Virus record (IMG/VR): IMGVR_UViG_3300031555_003626
Coordinates: 96,001 to 160,000 of that record
Strand: one strand, 5' to 3'
DNA: 64,000 nucleotides
Origin: a virus
Lineage: Duplodnaviria > Caudoviricetes
The position numbers were made by a program, and so were the translations under genes. Shown one piece after another: positions 6,382 to 63,152 of this stretch (its first letter is position 1; each line of letters opens with the position of its first letter). Below the pieces are notes generated by a model. The model did not search any database, was not told the origin of the DNA, and saw nothing but the letters and a program-made list of their open reading frames with translations.

Positions 6382-7677
6382 ATGAAAACACTTTTTCACT
6401 TCAAAGATTTTGTTAAGGAGATCAGCGCAAATAATTCAAGAAAGTTTAAGCAGGGAGTGCTTGAGAAGTATAAGGACGACTCTGTAGTACATAGATACCT
6501 TAAGATTGCCTTTGATCCTTATGCAGTCTACGGTATTTCGACTAAGAAACTTCATAAGTCGGTTCCGGCAACTTCCATTATAGGCATCCACTCCATCTTT
6601 GAGCTTTTCACCTACCTTACGCAGTACAATACCGGCACTGATCAGATAGTAGGTCTGTGTCAGGACTTCCTTGACGGCGTAGCGGCTTGCGACAGAGAGT
6701 CTGCAGACCTTCTTGAGAAGCTTATCTGCAAGGATCTCAGTATCGGGTGCGATGCTAAGTCAATTAACTCTGTAATTCCAGGACTTATTCCTACTTTCGA
6801 CGTACAGCTCGCTCAGAAGTACTTCGATAAGCCTGAGAAGCTTGAGGGTAAGTATTTTGCTCTCACTACGAAGATCGACGGCGGTCGTATTATCGCCATA
6901 AAGGAAAATGGTCAAGTTTCGTTTTTCACTCGAGCAGGTCAGTTGTATGAGGGCCTCGTAGATCTCGAGAGGGAAATGCAGGAGAACATGCCGGACGGAA
7001 CTGTCCTTGACGGAGAGATCACTATCTTCGAGGATCGTGGTATCCCTTCTAAGGAAGCTTACAAGAGAGCGATGAAGATCACGCGTTCTGATGGAGAGAA
7101 GCATGGACTCAAGATGAAGTGCTTCGATGCGATGTATATCGATGAGTGGAAGGCTCAAAAGTCTACTCACGACTACATCGAGAGAAGAGCTTTGCTTAAT
7201 ACACTTGTTGCTCGAAAAGCTTTGATTTACTTCGAAGTTCTTCCGGAGCTTTACAGAGGAACGGATACTACTAAGGTACTTGAATTCCTCGATGAAGCAA
7301 TCGCTAATCAGGAAGAGGGAGTCATGATCAACATCTGCGATGCTCCTTATGAGTTCGGCAGAACCTGGTCGCTTATGAAGGTAAAGAAGATGAATACTCT
7401 CGACCTCGAGATAGTCGGATACGAAGAGGGATCAGGAAGACTTGCCGGTACTCTCGGAGCTATTCACGTAAGATATAAGAACGGTAATATCGTTAAAGTC
7501 GGTTCCGGTTTCTCTGATGAACTTCGTGCACTCATCTGGCTTGAGCCTTCTGACTTCATTGGTAAGATAGTTGAGATTCAGTACTTTGAGGAAACTACTA
7601 ACGCAGATGGCGGCAAGAGTCTTCGCTTCCCGGTATTCAAAGACTTCAGAACTGATAAGCTTACCCCCGACTTCTAA
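6382..7677 (+). CDS. lig: ATP-dependent DNA ligase
   Basis: motif I KIDGGR, LDGEI, FDA, EGVMI, KVK; C-terminal OB fold with VGSGF and SLRFP. Confidence 0.95.
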   Translation: MKTLFHFKDFVKEISANNSRKFKQGVLEKYKDDSVVHRYLKIAFDPYAVYGISTKKLHKSVPATSIIGIHSIFELFTYLTQYNTGTDQIVGLCQDFLDGVAACDRESADLLEKLICKDLSIGCDAKSINSVIPGLIPTFDVQLAQKYFDKPEKLEGKYFALTTKIDGGRIIAIKENGQVSFFTRAGQLYEGLVDLEREMQENMPDGTVLDGEITIFEDRGIPSKEAYKRAMKITRSDGEKHGLKMKCFDAMYIDEWKAQKSTHDYIERRALLNTLVARKALIYFEVLPELYRGTDTTKVLEFLDEAIANQEEGVMINICDAPYEFGRTWSLMKVKKMNTLDLEIVGYEEGSGRLAGTLGAIHVRYKNGNIVKVGSGFSDELRALIWLEPSDFIGKIVEIQYFEETTNADGGKSLRFPVFKDFRTDKLTPDF

Positions 7678-35466: not shown

Positions 35467-35832
35467 ATGTCAAAGCTTAAGATTAAAACTCATACTACTT
35501 ATACTTATGAAACTACTGACGGCAGAGAATTCGAAGACCAGTCTGAGGCTCAGGAGTGGCAGGACCATTTAGAAAATATTACTGGCACCGTAATGCTTGA
35601 TCATAATTTTTGTAATACTACCAGAGTAGACGAAGCTATGTATGTACATGTTAAAACTGAGGCTCAGCTCAAAGCTTTTGAAGCTATCAATTCTTATGAA
35701 GGCATGTGTGCGAAGATTGATGCTCTCGGCTACTGGTACTATGATGAGCGCACAGATAATTATGTAAGCGTAAATAAGGAAATGTATAGGCTTCAGAGCA
35801 TTATTGAAACTCTTGATGTTCTTGGAAAGTGA
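35467..35832 (+). CDS. hypothetical protein, paralog of the C-terminal part of 58489-59127
   Basis: YETTDGREFE versus YRTSDGEVFE. Confidence 0.75.
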   Translation: MSKLKIKTHTTYTYETTDGREFEDQSEAQEWQDHLENITGTVMLDHNFCNTTRVDEAMYVHVKTEAQLKAFEAINSYEGMCAKIDALGYWYYDERTDNYVSVNKEMYRLQSIIETLDVLGK

Positions 35833-35839
35833 GGATACG

Positions 35840-36994
35840 ATGTTTAATACTGAACTTGGCTTGTTTTGCTATATGCACGATAACTGGGAAGAGCTTTTGA
35901 CTCAAGAGCCTTATTATCTTAAGATAAAGGAAGACGGCCCTTATGTAATTTTTAACTATGACCAGCTCAGATCAGATTTTTCTAATCATATTGTTCAGGA
36001 AGCTAGAGGCATTATCTTTAAAAGAGATGATTGGACTCATCCTGTTTGTTGGCCGTTTATGAAGTTTTTTAATGCAGGAGAGCCAAACGCAGCAGAGATT
36101 GATTGGTCTACCGCTTTCGTATCTGAGAAGGTCGACGGCTCTCTAATTAAGGTATGGTGGGATGGTTCTTGGAAGATCTCTACTAATGGAACTATTGATG
36201 CTTATAAGGCAGAGATTGGTGACGCTAGAATGCCTGACTTCGGAACTTACTTTACTGAAACTATTCATACATACTATACTACCTGCAGTAGTTTTCTTTG
36301 TGAGCTTGACTCGGACCTTACCTATATGTTTGAGTTGGTAGGCCCTTATAACAGAGTAGTTATTCCTTACGAAGAGCCTGATATCTATTTCCTTGGAGCT
36401 CGTAATAAGTATACCGGAGAAGAGCTTAACTGTTCTCCTTTGGCTGCTGGTGCTCTTGGTATGGGAAGATTTAAGTTGCCTAAGCAGTACCCTTTTAATA
36501 CTTTGGAGCATTGTATTAAGGTTACTGAGAATTTCCCTTGGGACGCAGAAGGCGTTGTAGCCTGTGATGCTAATTTTAACCGTGTTAAGATAAAGTCGCC
36601 TGCTTATGTTATGGCGCACTTCGCCCGGAATAATAATGTGATCAATAGAAAGCATCTTATCAACGTAATCCTTACTAATGAGGTAGAAGAGTTTCTTTGT
36701 TATGCCGCCGACTACAAGGAAGAGCTCGAGAAGGTACAGAATCTTATGAAGGCTTACTATAAGGTAGGCGATCAGATTGCTAAGTCCTGTCAGCGACTCT
36801 ATGATATTCCTAAAAAGACTTATGCTTACTGGGTACAGACTCTTCCTAAGATTTATCAGGACCTTGCTTTCAGAAATTATAATAACATTATGTCTACTAA
36901 GGATTATACCGCCGGCTGGAATGAGAATAAGTGGGACCAGTATCTTGATGAGTTTGAAAAGCTTAAGGAGGTTTTGTTTGATGGCAAAAATTGA
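35840..36994 (+). CDS. RNA ligase, T4 Rnl1 family
   Basis: EARGIIF, PFMKFFN, EKVDGS, FEL, EGVV, RVKIKS. Confidence 0.9.
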   Translation: MFNTELGLFCYMHDNWEELLTQEPYYLKIKEDGPYVIFNYDQLRSDFSNHIVQEARGIIFKRDDWTHPVCWPFMKFFNAGEPNAAEIDWSTAFVSEKVDGSLIKVWWDGSWKISTNGTIDAYKAEIGDARMPDFGTYFTETIHTYYTTCSSFLCELDSDLTYMFELVGPYNRVVIPYEEPDIYFLGARNKYTGEELNCSPLAAGALGMGRFKLPKQYPFNTLEHCIKVTENFPWDAEGVVACDANFNRVKIKSPAYVMAHFARNNNVINRKHLINVILTNEVEEFLCYAADYKEELEKVQNLMKAYYKVGDQIAKSCQRLYDIPKKTYAYWVQTLPKIYQDLAFRNYNNIMSTKDYTAGWNENKWDQYLDEFEKLKEVLFDGKN

Positions 36995-45983: not shown

Positions 45984-46379
45984 ATGGCACTTGATATTGA
46001 TGAGATCAGAGTTAATTATAATAAGGGAGTATATACTTATAAAGCAGATATTCCTAAAAAAGTAAAGCCTGATCATGTATTTGATGAGGAACTCTCTGTT
46101 AAGCGCAATCGTGAGCTCGCACAGGAACATAACGACAATGTTGACAGGCTGTGGCGAGATAAGAATAGAATTCAGAGAGAACTCGATGAACGACTTACTT
46201 ACGATGTAGTTGTTTATATGATGTCATATTATGATCTCACTGAGCGACAGGCAAAAATTGTTGAGAATTTTGTTTATCAGCACTATCATTCTTCTATGAG
46301 TGACTATTTCGGCTATATTGATACTTTTGCTGATTTTGCTTTTATGCTTGTTGAACCAAAGGAGGAAACAAATGACTGA
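45984..46379 (+). CDS. hypothetical protein
   Basis: AAGGAG RBS, class II motif upstream. Confidence 0.8.
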   Translation: MALDIDEIRVNYNKGVYTYKADIPKKVKPDHVFDEELSVKRNRELAQEHNDNVDRLWRDKNRIQRELDERLTYDVVVYMMSYYDLTERQAKIVENFVYQHYHSSMSDYFGYIDTFADFAFMLVEPKEETND

Positions 46380-47397
46380 CTTTAAAGAGATCCTTAAAAC
46401 ACCTGAGTATGAGTTTTTAAAGACAAATCCTCATCTCGGCAAGAATATTATTCTTCTTGGTCTTGGTGGTTCGCACGCTTATGGAACTAACGTAGAAGGC
46501 TCTGATGTTGATATTAGAGGTGTTGCGCTTAATTCTAAGGCTGAAATTCTTGGCGCAGCTAACTTTGAGCAAGTAGTTAACGAAGCTACAGATACTACTG
46601 TTTATTCAATTAGAAAGATTGTTAGTTTGCTTTCTTCTTGTAATCCTAATACTATTGAGCTGTTAGGTTTGAAGCCCGAGCATTATCTTTATTTATCGTC
46701 GGGCGGTCAGGAGCTACTTGATAATAAGAAACTTTTCCTTTCAAAGAGAGCTAAGTATTCTTTCGGTGGTTATGCTTTCGCACAGCTGAGAAGACTTGAT
46801 AATAAGGCAGCGCGGACAATCGCGCAGGCAGAAAGAGAGCAGCATATTCTTAATAGTATCACGACAGCTACCTATACTTGGCCTGAGAAATATGGCTGCT
46901 TTAAAGACGGTGAAGGAATAAAGCTTTATCTTGATAACTCTGCACAGGATGATATGGATAAAGAAATTTATATGGATATTAACTTGACTCACTATCCACT
47001 TCGAGACTATAAGGCAATGTGGTCAGATATGAAGAATATCGTTTCTGACTATGATAAAATTGGACACCGAAATCAGAATGCTATCGAGCGAGGAAAGCTT
47101 GGAAAACACATGATGCATCTCGTAAGACTTTACTTGATGTGCATTGATATTCTTGAGAAAGAAGAAATTAACACTTACCGTGAGAAAGACATTCCTTTTC
47201 TTATGGATATTCGTAACGGTAAATTCCTAGATGCAGAGTCGCAGCCACTCCCCGAATTCTATGAAATGGTAAGTGACTATGAGAAGCGTCTTGATTATGC
47301 TGCTGAAAATACGAGTCTGCCCGAGAAGCCGGACTATAATGCAATTAATGAATTTCTTATGAGTGTTAACGAAAGAGTTGTTAAAGATTTAATTTAA
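46372..47397 (+). CDS. Pol-beta-superfamily nucleotidyltransferase (RlaP-like)
   Basis: GGSHAYG...SDVDIRG, NPNTIELL, KHMMHLVRL. Confidence 0.85.
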   Translation: MTDFKEILKTPEYEFLKTNPHLGKNIILLGLGGSHAYGTNVEGSDVDIRGVALNSKAEILGAANFEQVVNEATDTTVYSIRKIVSLLSSCNPNTIELLGLKPEHYLYLSSGGQELLDNKKLFLSKRAKYSFGGYAFAQLRRLDNKAARTIAQAEREQHILNSITTATYTWPEKYGCFKDGEGIKLYLDNSAQDDMDKEIYMDINLTHYPLRDYKAMWSDMKNIVSDYDKIGHRNQNAIERGKLGKHMMHLVRLYLMCIDILEKEEINTYREKDIPFLMDIRNGKFLDAESQPLPEFYEMVSDYEKRLDYAAENTSLPEKPDYNAINEFLMSVNERVVKDLI

Positions 47398-55323: not shown

Positions 55324-55329
55324 TAACTT

Positions 55330-55647
55330 ATCAAGTTATGGATTGATGACGTAAGGTCTGCTCCGCCTGGAGATTATCTTTGGTTTAAGGATATAAATGA
55401 GGCTTTACGATTTATTAGAGCAAATGTTGCGGAGATCGATTTAATTGACTTTGATCATGATGCTGGTGATTTCCGTAGAGGCGGCAAAGAAGATTATATT
55501 GTTATATTGAAAGAGCTGGAACGTCTTCATCGTCGTGGGATAGTTAATTGCAGTCATATTAATTTTAGATTACATTCTGCAAATCCAGTCGGCGTACAAA
55601 ATATGAGAGCTATTATTGAAGCTAATGGTTGGAAGGAGATTCGCTGA
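55330..55647 (+). CDS. cyclic-phosphate-processing receiver-domain protein (ATC start)
   Basis: KLWIDDVR, DFDHDAG, HSANPVG; absent from ORF track; in-frame TAA at 55324. Confidence 0.7.
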   Translation: MKLWIDDVRSAPPGDYLWFKDINEALRFIRANVAEIDLIDFDHDAGDFRRGGKEDYIVILKELERLHRRGIVNCSHINFRLHSANPVGVQNMRAIIEANGWKEIR

Positions 55648-59453: not shown

Positions 59454-59994
59454 AGTCGAGAGTTATTTTTCTTGACTATGATTAGATGGGGTTGTCAATA
59501 CTCCCATGTGGAATGAGAAAGGCACCAGCTGTAGATACAACTGGCCGAGCGACGGAAAAGTAAATAACTTCCAGGCCGTTCAGTGGGTTTCAGAGGCCTG
59601 CAAGAAGTTTCATTATGATATCGTAGTTACTTCTACTTGGCGCCGTCATGATAACTACAAGGAATGCCTTATTAATGGTGGTCTTAGAGAAGGTATTGAA
59701 ATTCTTGGTAAAACGGAGCACCTCGAGGTTCCTGAGGGATGGTCTCGTGGTCATGAGATCCAGAAGTATCTTGATGAACATCCCGAAATTAATTACTTTA
59801 TGATTCTTGACGACGAAAATGTTCCTATTAATGAAGTACAGAGAGAGCATTTTATTCAGGCTGTAGATGCTCATGGAGGCTTCAATGAGGCAGATTTCTT
59901 TACTTTTGAAAAGAAATACATGAAAGACCTTGGTCACGGCGGATCTTTCTGGGACCGTAAACATAAAGATTATAGGAAGGAAATTATAGAATGA
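59450..59994 (+). pseudogene. HAD phosphatase (Swiss-Army-Knife RNA-repair type) disrupted by a 5-nt insertion
   Basis: MKSRVIFLDYD-stop; removing TAGAT 59483-59487 restores FLDYDGVVN in frame with VTSTWR, RGHEI, ILDD. Confidence 0.75.
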
Positions 59995-61541
59995 GAACGA
60001 TAGATACTCTATTGACAGATTTTAATGATATTTGTACCTTGTATAGATACCTTTACATGTCTGAAGATCATTTTATTGACGTTGAAACACCGGCTACTAC
60101 TTTGAGAATTACTATGACCGAGCAGCTTAATTTTAAATGTCAAAATCTTAACTTTCCTGACCTTCCGCCAATGGGATATAATGATATGATGACTCTTAAC
60201 CAGTCATTGGGAATTATTGACCAGCTTAAGCATAAGCCCGGTATTATGAATTTCCGTGAGGGTGCTTCTCGCTGGGACGAAATTTTTGATATTACTAACG
60301 CTAATTTGGCTCTAAATAGAGATCATAAGAAGAGGTATGCTACTGTATGATTACAAAAGAACAGGCGATTGATATTATAGCTAAGTTTGATTTTTTCTAC
60401 GGCCAGCGGGCAGGAAGAGAGCTTTGGTTCGATAAGTCGAGAGAAGTACAGGATGCGGATGTAAAAAATTTCAGCGATGATTGTGTAAGACTGCTTGAGT
60501 ATATTATGAAGACGGAGGCGCCTAATGTATAATCCTTTTGATCATTGGAAAGAACTAAAGTGTACAAAGTGTATACATGCAGAGCTTTGTATGCAAAATA
60601 GAGGCGGAGCCGACCTTGATATTGCTGCTGATAACTGCAGACATTTTAAAGATGCTTCTACTATTATTGAGCTACCTAAGAAATTTTGGCTTGTTTTCAA
60701 TGTTCCAGGTTTTTATAATATTACAGAGTATGATGTAGAACGAATCAGCATTGCCAACGGAGTAATTGATAAAATGTGGGGCTCAAACAAAACTTCGAAA
60801 GAAGTAGTATATAAAGAGCATTTTGGTAGCCTAGTTTTCTTTTCAGAGGAGGCTGCTAAGCTTGGTTTAGAAAAACTTATTGAGGAGTATCGTAATGAAG
60901 AAGCTTAATATTAAAAATTTGACTATTAATCTTGCAGATAATGTGCAAAGGGAAGACTGGGAAAATGCTGTTTATCACGCCTTTGAATCAGTATCTTCTG
61001 ACGCAGAATTTATTAACTTGGTTAAAGTCAAGTTGCCAAATGTTCCAATGGATAAAGCTCATTTTATTTTTCGACAACTAAAAGAAGCCTTCACTGAGCA
61101 GGGATTGACTAATTGTGTATTTGTGCCTATTCACCCACAGGGCATTCGTGATATTTCAATAGAAAGAATTGAATTAGATAATAAAGAGGAATGTAAAGTT
61201 ATAACCCAAGACATTTTTACTGATACTCCAGCCATGACTAAAACTACTGTTTCTGGAGGTTGGTAATGAAACATAAATGTTATATTTATAATAAAGGTTT
61301 TGAAGCAATGAAGAATAATGTCTGTGACACTTCTTGCGGCCTTTGTCCTGCACCAATGAATGCTCAGGAAGCTCTAGATATACTTACTAGTTATCTTCTG
61401 GGCGATGATTGGTATATTGCCATATCAGTAAATACTGAGCAGTGTAATGCGATTATTACAGAGCAAATTTTAGATAAATTTTCTAAAAAGTGGAAAAAAG
61501 ATTGGAACCACTTTGAAAAATACGATCAAGATACTGTATAA
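59991..61541 (+). other. small hypothetical CDSs
   Basis: 59991-60350, 60347-60532, 60525-60908, 60895-61266, 61266-61541. Confidence 0.75.
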
Positions 61542-61545
61542 TATA

Positions 61546-62395
61546 ATATCAGGTGCCACGAAGCCCGGGAAACGGATAGCATATAGTTGAAAAAAGTACC
61601 TTGACGTTAATGGGAGCTAAAGCAGCTGTGGTTATGGAGTTAGATGAACAGCCTGATATGTTTAGAGGTGCCCGTTCGCAGACGTGTGTAGCAGCTGACC
61701 GCGAATTAGCTTAGCTACTTTGTAATGGAATTTGAGAAACAGCCTCTAATAGCTGAGTCGAATGACGTTGGGATGTTCCCCGTTCACCTTCGCTTGGGTG
61801 CTCAGCAACAAGCAATTTATGAATTATCCGGACCTCCGGCGGTTATGCGGCAGAAGCTGCCACCGCACTGGGCAATAGGCCCTGGCTTGATATACCCGAG
61901 CTTCCGGAAGGGGTTATTAAAGCAAGTACGCCAATAGCAGAGAGCGATTCGAGTAAAAATCGATGTGGTGTAGGTAAGAGTCCTACCTTGCTGTAAATTT
62001 AATAGTAGGTGCTACGAAGAGCCCTTAAGCCGTTAGCCGTAAAGCAGTGGAGTATACGTTTACTGTGAAATTGCTTTTACGTGAATCGGGGTGCTTAACA
62101 GGCCAGTAATTCGTTTGTTAATCGTGTGGTTACTGTGGCGGGGTTGTGCCGAGAGCTGTAGTAAACGGAGTTAGAAGAACGGCCTACAAAATATTTTAAA
62201 TGTCTGAAAAGTTATAAGCTTCTTATCGATTGCAGTCCTAAAGACTTAATAAAGAAGTAGGCGTGCTTAATGGAGTTAACTAAAATCGTCGCACTCTTGC
62301 CGAGTAATTAACGGTGCTAGGTGGGTAGCTGAAATGTCCACAAACGCAATCCAGACAATAATGCAAAACGCTGACTAAGACGTTAGTTCAGCGCT
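61546..62395 (+). ncRNA. large structured noncoding RNA (~850 nt), family unassigned
   Basis: class II motif 61532-61542 upstream, terminator-like hairpin downstream, no RBS-led ORF, higher GC, many nested helices. Confidence 0.75.
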
Positions 62396-62425
62396 AGGGG
62401 CGCTGAGATAAAGGCGCCCTTTCTT
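62396..62425 (+). terminator. terminator-like hairpin
   Basis: GGGCGC-N10-GCGCCC then TTTCTT. Confidence 0.55.
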
Positions 62426-62429
62426 ATAT

Positions 62430-62573
62430 CCACAATTGGCGGAACAGGCAACACAAATGTAAGTCCTGACTGTAGGCAGCCGGTGTAAGTCCTACTGGTG
62501 TAGACGCACCGCGGAGTAGCGGCGATACACTGACGAGTGTATCATCTGGGTTCGAATCCCGGGTTGTGGACCA
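62430..62573 (+). tRNA. atypical class II (Leu-like) tRNA-like RNA
   Basis: acceptor CCACAAT/GTTGTGG, A73, encoded CCA; T arm CTGGG-TTCGAAT-CCCGG; 7-bp variable arm; ~50-nt D-loop insert; 6-nt anticodon loop. Confidence 0.75.
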
Positions 62574-62597
62574 TATTTTATTTATAGGAGATTTGTT

Positions 62598-63152
62598 ATG
62601 GTTATCGGAATTGATTTTGATGGCGTAATGAACCGTATGTTAGAGACTTGGCTAGAGTGGCTTAATATGCGACACGGCTTAACAGTAAAGTTTAAAGACG
62701 TAAAAAATTGGGAACTTGAAAAATGTTATCCGACACTTACAAAAGATGAACTGTATGCTCCATTACACTTCACAGATTTTTGGTCTGAAGTAAAGATTCA
62801 GGAAAATGCACCCGAGGTAATTGAAAGACTTATTCAAGAGGGCCATCAAGTTTATGTAATTACAAGTACTCACTACGATATAATTTCAGCTAAGTTTAAG
62901 AATTGTCTTCTTAAGCATTTTCCTTTTATAAAGAAAGAAAATATAATTATTACATATAATAAATCGCTTATCAGATGTGACCTTTTACTTGACGACGCAG
63001 AGCATAATTTAATAAATTTTAAAGGTATTAAAGTAGTTTTTGATGCACCTTATAATAAAAATACTTCCGTAGCAGATTTTAGAGTATGTTCTTGGGAAGA
63101 CTTTTATGAACTAATTTCTGAGCTAAAAACTGCTATTACTAATATTGTATAA
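62598..63152 (+). CDS. 5'(3')-deoxyribonucleotidase (NT5C, HAD family)
   Basis: GIDFDGVM, ITS, K, LLDD, FDAPYN. Confidence 0.88.
   Translation: MVIGIDFDGVMNRMLETWLEWLNMRHGLTVKFKDVKNWELEKCYPTLTKDELYAPLHFTDFWSEVKIQENAPEVIERLIQEGHQVYVITSTHYDIISAKFKNCLLKHFPFIKKENIIITYNKSLIRCDLLLDDAEHNLINFKGIKVVFDAPYNKNTSVADFRVCSWEDFYELISELKTAITNIV

What the first reader, a model, noticed from the sequence alone, without database searches (positions are those of the whole stretch)
61546..62425. ~850-nt ornate noncoding RNA with its own promoter in a phage
Seen: the only ~1-kb gap in an otherwise wall-to-wall coding region, GC-richer than its flanks, bounded by a class II promoter motif and a terminal hairpin. Helices tile almost all of it: ATATCAGG/CCTGATAT (61546/61652), TTAGAGG/CCTCTAA (61662/61743), GCTGAG/CTCAGC (61752/61801), a junction of GCGGT/ACCGC, GGCAG/CTGCC, GGGC/GCCC and GCTTG/CGAGC, ATAGCAG/TTGCTGT enclosing a T-loop-like GTAGG-TAAGAGT-CCTAC, GTAGG/CCTAC (62005/62183), TGTCTG/CAGACA (62201/62352), and a CGCTGA/TCAGCG hairpin. 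Many G-U pairs suggest selection at RNA level. Known: GOLLD and ROOL are large phage-associated RNAs often near tRNAs. Inference: this is a divergent member of one of those classes or a new class; I cannot assign it by eye.
Basis: partly seen in the sequence, partly recalled or inferred. Interest (0 to 1): 0.88.

Follow-up and report, generated by a model that had tools for sequence, protein, structure and literature searches.

The report
Phage non-coding locus of repeated RNA modules
The 1-kb gene-free stretch of this 233-kb phage is real structured non-coding DNA. It is best read not as one giant RNA but as a string of smaller folded units, three of which belong to a widespread RNA family with no Rfam match that normally sits among phage tRNA genes.

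Summary
The gap 61542-62597 is non-coding and richer in G+C than its flanks. A near-consensus sigma-70 promoter opens it and a terminator-like hairpin closes it. No Rfam 15 family matches, so it is not GOLLD, ROOL, a riboswitch, an intron or a known ribozyme.

It holds three copies (M1, M2, M3) of one module:
- a covarying closing stem P1 that ends in GGU/GCC;
- a covarying stem P2;
- a variable interior of 25-190 nt;
- a nearly invariant 18-20-nt strand, UAAAUGGAGUUNGANGAACA.

I found 144 distinct copies in uncultivated phage and metagenome contigs. Covariation of P1 and P2 beat all 500 shuffles, both in the seed set and in 112 copies not used for the model.

Modules always lie on the tRNA strand (532 tRNAs to 0). 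They often end 2-9 nt before a tRNA or directly follow a promoter. Some sit at the tip of P6 in tRNA group I introns.

The locus ends in a tRNA-like element that is not a normal tRNA.

Function is unknown. My best guess is a stable RNA domain, cut out by tRNA-processing enzymes, whose invariant strand binds a conserved partner. Two earlier readers of this stretch also noted the threefold repeat.

The parts
61513..61542 (+). Sigma-70-type promoter: TTGAAA, 18-nt spacer, TATAAT. The predicted start at about 61548-61550 falls in the 5' strand of M1's closing stem.
   Evidence: 11 of 12 matches. The same -10 region is conserved in L014. The start site is inferred, not measured.
61546..61659 (+). 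Module M1. P1 is 61546-61554 with 61651-61659. P2 is GCCAC 61555-61559 with GTGGT 61628-61632. The invariant joining strand is 61633-61650.
   Evidence: Model R1 scores 78 bits, E 2e-20. The L014 orthologue keeps the ends while its interior has diverged.
61662..61749 (+). Module M2, a divergent copy. P1 is TTAGAGGT/GCCTCTAA, the joining strand reads GGAAUUUGAGAAACA, and P2 is weak.
   Evidence: R1 scores 25 bits, E 5e-6. Its 5' part resembles the metagenome copy in L314. It is absent from L014.
61752..61806 (+). Hairpin X1: GCTGAG...CTCAGC enclosing GGGAUGUUCCCC.
   Evidence: It is nearly identical in L014. The GGGAUGUUCCCC hairpin recurs in other phage contigs that carry the module (L002, L004, L012, L045, L089, L128). 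There is no covariation to test.
61807..62004 (+). Variable linker with locally stable hairpins, for example GGCAG-AAG-CTGCC and GTAGG-TAAGAGT-CCTAC.
   Evidence: Most of it is replaced by other sequence in L014. No Rfam match.
62005..62187 (+). Module M3. P1 is GTAGGT/GGCCTAC, P2 is GCTAC/GTAGT, and the 142-nt interior is branched.
   Evidence: R1 scores 65 bits, E 5.5e-17. In a three-sequence alignment with L004 and L014, 14 predicted interior pairs keep pairing through changes on both sides.
62188..62368 (+). Variable linker.
   Evidence: Not alignable with L014.
62369..62393 (+). Hairpin CGCTGACTAA-GACG-TTAGTTCAGCG.
   Evidence: Conserved in L014 with G-U-compatible changes, but at a different distance from the terminator.
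62396..62431 (+). Terminator-like hairpin (9 bp, 6 of them G-C) followed by a T-rich tail.
   Evidence: It is nearly identical in L014, with one loop base changed.
62430..62573 (+). tRNA-like element. It has a 7-bp acceptor-like stem (CCACAAT/GTTGTGG), a T arm (CTGGG-TTCGAAT-CCCGG) and a 3' ACCA. Between them lie about 105 nt that hold two AGGCA...GUAAGUCCU hairpins and a GATACAC...GTGTATC hairpin.
   Evidence: Read from the sequence. ARAGORN finds no tRNA with default settings; relaxed settings give only a poor model with a 47-nt 'intron'. Rfam gives no tRNA or tmRNA match at E up to 10. It is conserved in L014, with two compensatory changes in the second hairpin.

Best explanation
Shown: the gap is a non-coding unit bounded by a promoter motif and a terminator-like hairpin. 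It is built from RNA domains that fold on their own. Three of them are copies of one module family that is almost confined to uncultivated phages and belongs to the non-translated parts of phage genomes: tRNA arrays, loops of tRNA introns and intergenic leaders.

Each module is a rod closed by stem P1, so its 5' and 3' ends are tied together. P1 carries stem P2 and a freely variable interior. Between P2 and P1 lies an almost invariant unpaired strand, UAAAUGGAGUUNGANGAACA, whose UUNGA has the sequence pattern of a T-loop.

Inferred mechanism: the module is released from the primary transcript as a compact RNA that resists exonucleases. Where tRNAs flank it, RNase P and the tRNA 3'-end enzymes would do the cutting. 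In this locus the 5' end would be the transcription start, and the 3' side would be set by the terminator or by RNase P cutting at the tRNA-like element. The invariant strand, together with the GGUGC junction, would then be the working surface that binds a conserved host or phage partner, most plausibly a protein or RNA that recognises tRNA. The interior would be only a scaffold. This phage makes three such units from one promoter.
For: Identity and structure:
- Three copies lie in the gap and nowhere else in the 233-kb genome.
- I found 144 distinct copies in IMG/VR and metagenome contigs.
- In the 53-sequence seed alignment, 84% of P1/P2 cells pair against 63% in shuffles, with 196 double changes against 78 and 0 of 500 shuffles reaching the observed value. 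Slid controls pair at 23-50%.
- The result repeats in 112 copies not used to build the model: 87.7% against 65%, and 345 double changes against 130. Rare compensatory changes even occur in the GGU/GCC pairs.
- The six strongest mutual-information pairs are pairs of these two stems.

Context:
- 101 of 133 loci carry tRNAs, all 532 on the module's strand.
- 25 modules end within 25 nt before a tRNA start, typically 3-9 nt, and 9 start within 25 nt after a tRNA. There is no preference for a tRNA type.
- A sigma-70 promoter lies just upstream in 10 of 62 modules, against 5% of control positions.
- Modules sit at the tip of P6 of a tRNA group I intron: L003 matches Intron_gpI at E 1.7e-10 with a 114-nt insert. 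Ten modules show this upstream context.
- Interior length ranges from 25 to about 190 nt while the joining strand stays fixed.
Against: - There are no expression data.
- No binding partner has been identified, and genes next to tRNA-free copies share no family.
- 16 of 64 well-flanked modules have no tRNA within 1.5 kb, so excision by tRNA enzymes cannot be general.
- Here the phage's real tRNA array lies about 30 kb away.
- The T-loop reading rests on a sequence pattern only. The two variable bases of the strand covary with nothing.
Confidence: 0.4

Rival explanations
1. It acts in cis as a leader or insulator for untranslated operons. Transcribed first, the module would modify RNA polymerase (like put of phage HK022) or block Rho. 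Alternatively it would shield the 5' end from RNases or keep neighbouring tRNAs from misfolding. In this reading it works only on its own transcript.
For: M1 starts at the predicted transcription start. Promoters are enriched directly upstream of modules. Among well-flanked copies, 13 sit at the 5' edge of a tRNA array against 4 at the 3' edge. Modules always point the same way as the tRNAs. Long untranslated arrays are natural targets for Rho (established knowledge).
Against: Most copies are internal to arrays (31 of 64) or inside intron loops. Three copies within 650 nt are hard to justify for a signal that acts once. The tight 3-9-nt spacing before tRNAs is not needed for antitermination. 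There is no sequence likeness to put, nut or boxA.
Confidence: 0.2
2. It is one large ornate RNA in the manner of GOLLD or ROOL. The whole unit of about 875 nt would fold, and perhaps multimerise, as a single functional particle, with the modules as its sub-domains.
For: A single promoter motif and a single terminator-like hairpin bound the unit. The overall order of elements is kept in L014. GOLLD and ROOL also lie in phage tRNA arrays and can hold tRNAs (PMC12990946).
Against: No GOLLD or ROOL match, even at E up to 10. The whole-length fold is no better than shuffles. M2 is absent and two linkers are replaced in the nearest relative. In 123 of 133 loci the module stands alone. No long-range helix joins the parts.
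Confidence: 0.13
3. It is a selfish insertion element that spreads at the DNA or RNA level. It would survive only where insertions are tolerated: tRNA spacers, intron loops and intergenic DNA. In that case it has no function for the phage.
For: Its locations are those that tolerate inserts, namely the P6 and P9 loops that usually hold homing-endonuclease genes. M2 is present in this phage and absent from its close relative. Some genomes carry several copies.
Against: The closing-stem sequences differ and covary with G-U pairs instead of being conserved inverted repeats. I noticed no target-site duplications, though I did not test for them systematically. No transposase or endonuclease is associated. 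The near-invariance of the 18-20-nt strand across 144 copies points to selection on the RNA.
Confidence: 0.1
4. It is a new self-cleaving ribozyme that processes tRNA-array transcripts.
For: An invariant unpaired core with variable peripheral stems is typical of small ribozymes. Ribozymes and RAGATH motifs live in the same arrays: RAGATH-16 and RAGATH-36 occur in L013, and theta ribozymes lie next to phage tRNAs (PMC10879173, listed).
Against: No match to any ribozyme model in Rfam. By hand, the order of strands does not fit a hammerhead, an HDV-like ribozyme or a pistol ribozyme. Cleavage inside P6 would destroy the host intron. RNase P already makes the tRNA 5' end a few nucleotides downstream.
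Confidence: 0.07
5. It is a ligand-binding aptamer without an expression platform, for example an abundant RNA sponge for a nucleotide signal.
For: The pocket-like invariant strand, the several copies and the high-expression context would suit a sponge. In this phage the locus directly follows a Tad8-type Thoeris inhibitor gene.
Against: No riboswitch model matches. The Tad8 neighbour is seen only in this phage and L014, while the family's usual context is tRNA arrays. No natural RNA sponge of this kind is known.
Confidence: 0.05

Closest known systems
GOLLD and ROOL RNAs (Rfam RF01998, RF03087)
   Same: They are orphan structured RNAs of phages and prophages, found inside or next to tRNA arrays, sometimes with a tRNA embedded, and of unknown function (PMC12990946).
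   Different: No covariance-model match. The conserved unit here is 60-190 nt with two proven stems, not a 550-830-nt fold with many junctions. It repeats within one locus and also sits in intron loops.
RAGATH motifs and small ribozymes of phage tRNA arrays (theta/HDV-like, hammerhead)
   Same: They are small structured RNAs interspersed with phage tRNAs, and RAGATH-16 and RAGATH-36 occur in one of the contigs that carry the module.
   Different: No model matches the module. Its architecture is two stacked stems joined on one side by a 20-nt invariant strand. Self-cleavage has not been tested.
RNAs excised through flanking tRNAs or tRNA-like elements (MALAT1/mascRNA; stable RNAs C and D of the phage T4 tRNA cluster)
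   Same: A non-tRNA RNA is co-transcribed with tRNAs or a tRNA-like element, so that tRNA-processing enzymes could define its ends. Here a tRNA-like element follows the unit, and elsewhere modules abut tRNAs.
   Different: This comparison comes from my own knowledge, not from a test. No sequence relation was found, and processing is not shown here.
T-loop platforms that dock on tRNA elbows (T-box Stem I, RNase P S-domain, L1 stalk)
   Same: The invariant strand contains UUNGA, with only the third base free. Many interiors carry seven-base hairpin loops of the UUUGAAU type, like a tRNA T-loop.
   Different: This is a sequence pattern only. No three-dimensional evidence exists, there is no specifier or other T-box feature, and the smallest copies lack the interior hairpin.

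Membership tests
GOLLD (RF01998) / ROOL (RF03087) | A match to the family covariance model | tested here: not met
   cmscan of the window at gathering score gave 0 hits. For 61400-62700 at E up to 10 there was only one chance-level hit, to a group II intron fragment model.
GOLLD (RF01998) / ROOL (RF03087) | One conserved fold of 550-830 nt with many junctions | tested here: not met
   Conservation is confined to modules of 60-190 nt. The linkers and M2 are not conserved in L014. The whole-length z-score is -0.93.
GOLLD (RF01998) / ROOL (RF03087) | Location in phage or prophage tRNA arrays | tested here: met
   This holds for the module family: 101 of 133 loci carry tRNAs. In this phage the locus lies about 30 kb from the tRNA array and has only a tRNA-like element.
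   No such hit at E up to 10.
Group I intron (RF00028) | P3-P9 core | tested here: not met
   No hit in the window. In L003 the intron model matches around the module, which is an insert at the tip of P6. The module is therefore a passenger of such introns, not an intron itself.
Small self-cleaving ribozymes (hammerhead, HDV-like, twister, twister-sister, pistol, hatchet, hairpin) | A match to the family model; the order of core strands | tested here: not met
   No hit at E up to 10 on the module alone. By hand, the strand order does not fit hammerhead, HDV-like or pistol. Catalysis itself cannot be tested with these tools.
tRNA (for the element at 62430-62573) | A cloverleaf with D arm and anticodon arm | tested here: not met
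   ARAGORN finds none with default settings, and relaxed settings give a poor model with a 47-nt intron. The Rfam tRNA and tmRNA models give no hit.
tRNA-like structure | An acceptor-like stem stacked on a T arm with a UUCGAAU loop, plus a 3' NCCA | tested here: met
   CCACAAT/GTTGTGG, CTGGG-TTCGAAT-CCCGG and ACCA are present and conserved in L014.
Bacterial Y RNA (YrlA) with Ro60 | A Ro60 (TROVE) gene in the genome and a Ro-binding stem | tested here: not met
   No TROVE match in the 233-kb genome. No Rfam Y RNA hit.
T-loop motif | A five-base U-U-N-R-A pattern with the first and fifth bases invariant and the third free | tested here: inconclusive
   The sequence pattern is met in all 53 seed copies and in 141 of 144. 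The defining geometry cannot be tested with these tools.

The most novel reading that the evidence does not exclude
The module is a new class of functional phage RNA. Its invariant T-loop-like junction would form a platform that binds tRNA elbows or a host protein that recognises tRNA. That would make it an RNA made in bulk from tRNA operons to manipulate host tRNA biology, for example as a decoy for defence nucleases that cut tRNAs.
Probability: 0.12. Interest if true: 0.9.

Novelty: new variant of a known kind. Interest (0 to 1): 0.68.

Why it matters
Phage tRNA arrays are already known to hold enigmatic structured RNAs: GOLLD, ROOL, RAGATH motifs and theta ribozymes. This locus reveals a further family with strong evidence behind it:
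- 144 distinct copies;
- two helices backed by covariation in two separate sequence sets;
- an 18-20-nt strand that hardly changes.

The family has no Rfam model and no match in cultured-phage records. It occurs between tRNAs, at the tips of tRNA group I intron stems and as a promoter-proximal leader. That range of sites makes it a compact, portable RNA domain.

The smallest copies have a 59-61-nt core (about 75 nt with the rest of the closing stem). They are therefore easy targets for probing, cleavage assays, pull-downs and structure work. Finding the partner would show what large phages do with their non-coding RNA output beyond supplying tRNAs.

Tried and rejected
- Rfam at gathering score and at E up to 10, on the window, the gap, M1 alone and the tRNA-like element: nothing above chance.
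- BLAST of the whole gap and of the 34-36-nt conserved strand against 50,697 GenBank phage records: chance hits only. The one candidate, LR756501, was rejected by the model.
- The pattern scan of bacterial genomes gave almost only G+C-rich chance matches in coding sequence. One real copy turned up in an Oscillospiraceae MAG contig. None was found in 150 other genomes of that order.
- Hammerhead (type II), HDV-like and pistol arrangements were compared by hand and do not fit the strand order or the covarying P2.
- Likeness of UAGAUGAA to RNase P J18/2, to the L11-binding rRNA and to c-di-GMP-II comes from memory only and has no model support, so I dropped it.
- An alternative pairing of the GG of GGAG with the 3' CC was rejected, because rare compensatory changes support GGU/GCC as part of P1.
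- I searched for covariation between the two free bases of the joining strand and any other column and found none.
- I looked for a shared neighbouring protein at copies without tRNAs and found none.
- The search for related loci with the NT5C gene returned only an identical contig.
- Literature searches found no description of this motif. They cover open-access text only.

Full report
**What is at the coordinates**

The window is bases 96001-160000 of a 233-kb IMG/VR phage record that CheckV rates as complete. Between the stop of a 93-aa gene at 61541 and the start of a 184-aa gene at 62598 there is no credible ORF.
- The 93-aa gene matches Pfam Tad8, a Thoeris inhibitor (E 3e-22). The 184-aa gene matches NT5C, a 5' nucleotidase (E 2e-32).
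- The only + strand frame of 50 aa or more inside the gap (61725-61937) has no Pfam or PHROG match, and its region is broken by indels in the nearest relative.
- This is the largest ORF-free stretch of the window.
- Its G+C is 0.41-0.48, against 0.32-0.36 on both sides.
- A near-consensus sigma-70 promoter (TTGAAA, 18 nt, TATAAT) lies at 61513-61542. A 9-bp terminator-like hairpin with a T-rich tail lies at 62396-62421.
- The + strand folds to -263.7 kcal/mol and the - strand to -218.7. Even so, the + strand fold is not better than shuffled sequence (z = -0.93).

The thermodynamic 'tiling' of helices is not evidence by itself.

**No known family**

- Rfam 15 gives no hit in the whole window at gathering score.
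- With permissive filters at E up to 10 there is only chance-level noise, whether I search the gap, M1 alone or the tRNA-like element.
- ARAGORN finds no tRNA in the window.

**The repeat**

A repeat search showed three copies of a 24-nt block, GTTATGGAGTTAGATGAACAGCCT. Each block lies at the 3' end of a unit with this layout: closing stem 5' strand, GGUGC, variable interior, GURGU, (U)AAAUGGAGUUNGANGAACA, GCC, closing stem 3' strand. The copies are:
- M1 at 61546-61659;
- M2 at 61662-61749, which is divergent;
- M3 at 62005-62187.

**The module is a widespread family**

Exact-pattern scans for the 3' block found it in many IMG/VR contigs and in at least 120 metagenome contigs. After filtering for the 5' GGUG and a closing stem, I had 144 distinct copies with cores of 44-258 nt, median 107.

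Covariation in the seed set, a 53-sequence alignment (A3):
- Ten P1 pairs, five P2 pairs and three further pairs beyond a bulge give 84% paired cells, against 63% after shuffling.
- There are 196 cells with changes on both sides, against 78 after shuffling. None of 500 shuffles reached the observed values.
- Controls with one strand slid by 1-3 columns pair at only 23-50%.

Covariation in a separate set:
- A covariance model built from A3 (R1) recovered 115 copies from metagenome loci that were not used to build it.
- On their 112 distinct sequences the same stems give 87.7% against 65%, and 345 double changes against 130.
- Rare compensatory changes appear in the otherwise invariant GGU/GCC pairs (G-C to A-U twice, U-G to C-G once). 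This shows that those bases belong to P1.
- That alignment is fitted to the model, so it leans towards the model's structure. The sequences are also related to one another. Both facts inflate such numbers somewhat.
- The six strongest mutual-information pairs are P1 and P2 pairs. The next signal is G-C/A-U/A-A covariation just beyond a one-base bulge above P2. The two free bases of the joining strand covary with nothing.

What the module looks like:
- The strand between P2 and P1 is 18-20 nt long and almost invariant.
- Its UUNGA has the sequence signature of a T-loop. Many interiors also carry seven-base hairpin loops of the UUUGAAU type. This is a pattern, not a demonstrated fold.
- The smallest true copies have a 59-61-nt core (about 75 nt with the rest of the closing stem). 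They keep only P1, a 4-bp P2, one small hairpin and the joining strand.

**Where modules live**

- In 133 loci, 101 contain tRNAs, and all 532 tRNAs lie on the module's strand.
- 108 of 144 modules have a tRNA within 2 kb.
- 25 modules end within 25 nt before a tRNA start, usually 3-9 nt beyond my 7-nt flank. Nine begin within 25 nt after a tRNA. In L274 and L276 a module is sandwiched between two tRNAs. No tRNA type is preferred.
- A sigma-70 promoter lies directly upstream of 10 of 62 modules, against 5% of control positions. Four of these have 11 or 12 of 12 matches.
- Among 64 modules with 1.5 kb of sequence on both sides, 31 are inside arrays, 13 at the 5' edge, 4 at the 3' edge and 16 have no tRNA nearby.
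- In L003 a tRNA gene is interrupted by a group I intron (Intron_gpI, 46 bits, E 1.7e-10). The tip of its P6 carries a 114-nt insert that is a module, and a second module sits in its 3' part. Ten modules share this upstream P4-P6 context.
- Rfam finds tRNAs, RAGATH-16, RAGATH-36 and HEARO in these loci, but nothing over the module itself.
- Genes next to tRNA-free copies share no family.

**Distribution**

- The phage's own genome holds only the three copies in this locus. Its 13 tRNA genes lie about 30 kb further on.
- No real match exists in 50,697 GenBank phage records.
- Among bacterial genomes I found one copy, on a 23-kb contig of an Oscillospiraceae MAG. None was found in 150 other genomes of that order.
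- The family is thus essentially one of uncultivated phages.
- From my own memory of accession prefixes, many of the metagenome records look like rumen or gut samples. I could not check this.

**The rest of the locus**

L014 is a syntenic relative with the same gene order: Tad8-like gene, promoter, non-coding unit, NT5C. The alignment shows the following.
- Conserved: the promoter; the ends of M1 (its interior has diverged); hairpin X1 at 61752-61806; M3; a GACG-loop hairpin; the terminator-like hairpin; the tRNA-like element.
- Not conserved: M2 is absent, and the segments 61831-61990 and 62195-62365 are replaced by other sequence.
- M3's large interior shows 14 compensatory pairs among just three homologues.
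- The tRNA-like element (62430-62573) has an acceptor-like stem, a canonical T arm and ACCA. It has no D arm or anticodon arm. In their place are two AGGCA...GUAAGUCCU hairpins, one of which has two compensatory changes in L014.

**Interpretation**

The evidence supports a modular non-coding unit rather than a single 850-nt fold. The module's ends are tied together by P1, its interior is free to vary, and its invariant strand is the obvious working surface. It sits wherever untranslated, highly transcribed RNA tolerates an insert, often at cutting distance from a tRNA.

My preferred mechanism (confidence about 0.4) is a stable small RNA domain released by tRNA-processing enzymes. In this locus its ends would be set by the transcription start and by the terminator or the tRNA-like element. 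It would bind a conserved, probably tRNA-related, partner.

The rivals, in order of my confidence:
- a cis-acting leader for antitermination or protection (0.2);
- one large ornate RNA (0.13);
- a selfish insertion element (0.1);
- a new ribozyme (0.07);
- an aptamer or sponge (0.05).

None of these can be settled without expression or biochemical data.

**Comparison and novelty**

By context the module works like the other orphan RNAs of phage tRNA arrays. It is not a member of any of them by the model tests above. Open-access literature searches found no description of it. It may nevertheless be hidden among the thousands of unnamed candidates in large screens such as PMC10690425, which I could not search by sequence. 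Two earlier first-stage notes on this same stretch also saw the threefold repeat. The cobalamin likeness suggested in one of them is not supported.

Noticed in passing
window 62430-62573: A tRNA-like element lies just after the terminator-like hairpin. It has a 7-bp acceptor-like stem, a perfect T arm and ACCA, but about 105 nt of other hairpins replace the D and anticodon arms. Neither ARAGORN nor Rfam calls it. It is conserved in L014.
   Followed up: partly
window 61260-61541: The gene directly upstream of the RNA locus matches Pfam Tad8, a type II Thoeris inhibitor (E 3e-22). The same neighbour is present in L014.
   Followed up: no
window 35804-36994, 46300-47397, 59506-59994, 6382-7677: A set of RNA and DNA repair genes: a T4 Rnl1-like RNA ligase, an RlaP nucleotidyltransferase of the RNA repair pathway, a HAD domain of 'Swiss Army Knife' RNA repair proteins, and an ATP-dependent DNA ligase.
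   Followed up: no
window 61770-61781; L002, L004, L012, L045, L089, L128: A short hairpin motif, GGGAUGUUCCCC, recurs in several unrelated phage contigs that also carry the module. It may be a second small conserved element of these arrays.
   Followed up: partly
window 62458-62467, 62484-62493, 61973-61983; interiors of modules in L003, L087, L124: The motif GUAAGUCC (or GUAAGAGUCC) recurs on the 3' side of hairpin loops, running into the stem. It gave a chance-level hit to a group II intron fragment model.
   Followed up: no
L003 1758-2351: A class II tRNA gene (Leu-like) is split by a group I intron of about 500 nt that carries two modules, one at the tip of P6 and one in the P9 region. 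The intron scores just under Rfam's gathering cut-off because of the inserts.
   Followed up: partly
L013 89-161 and 3831-3994; L009 14555-14769: RAGATH-16, RAGATH-36 and HEARO RNAs lie in phage contigs that carry the module.
   Followed up: no
loci that carry the module: ARAGORN tRNAs with a CUA anticodon ('Pyl') in these contigs. Some of these phages may therefore use amber suppression.
   Followed up: no
window 55324-55628: The second-largest internal stretch without a + strand ORF (305 nt). It has no Rfam hit and was not examined further.
   Followed up: no
L014 12140-12090 (minus strand): In the relative, the linker after M3 holds AAGGAG followed by a 16-codon ORF that is absent from the window. 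It is probably fortuitous.
   Followed up: no
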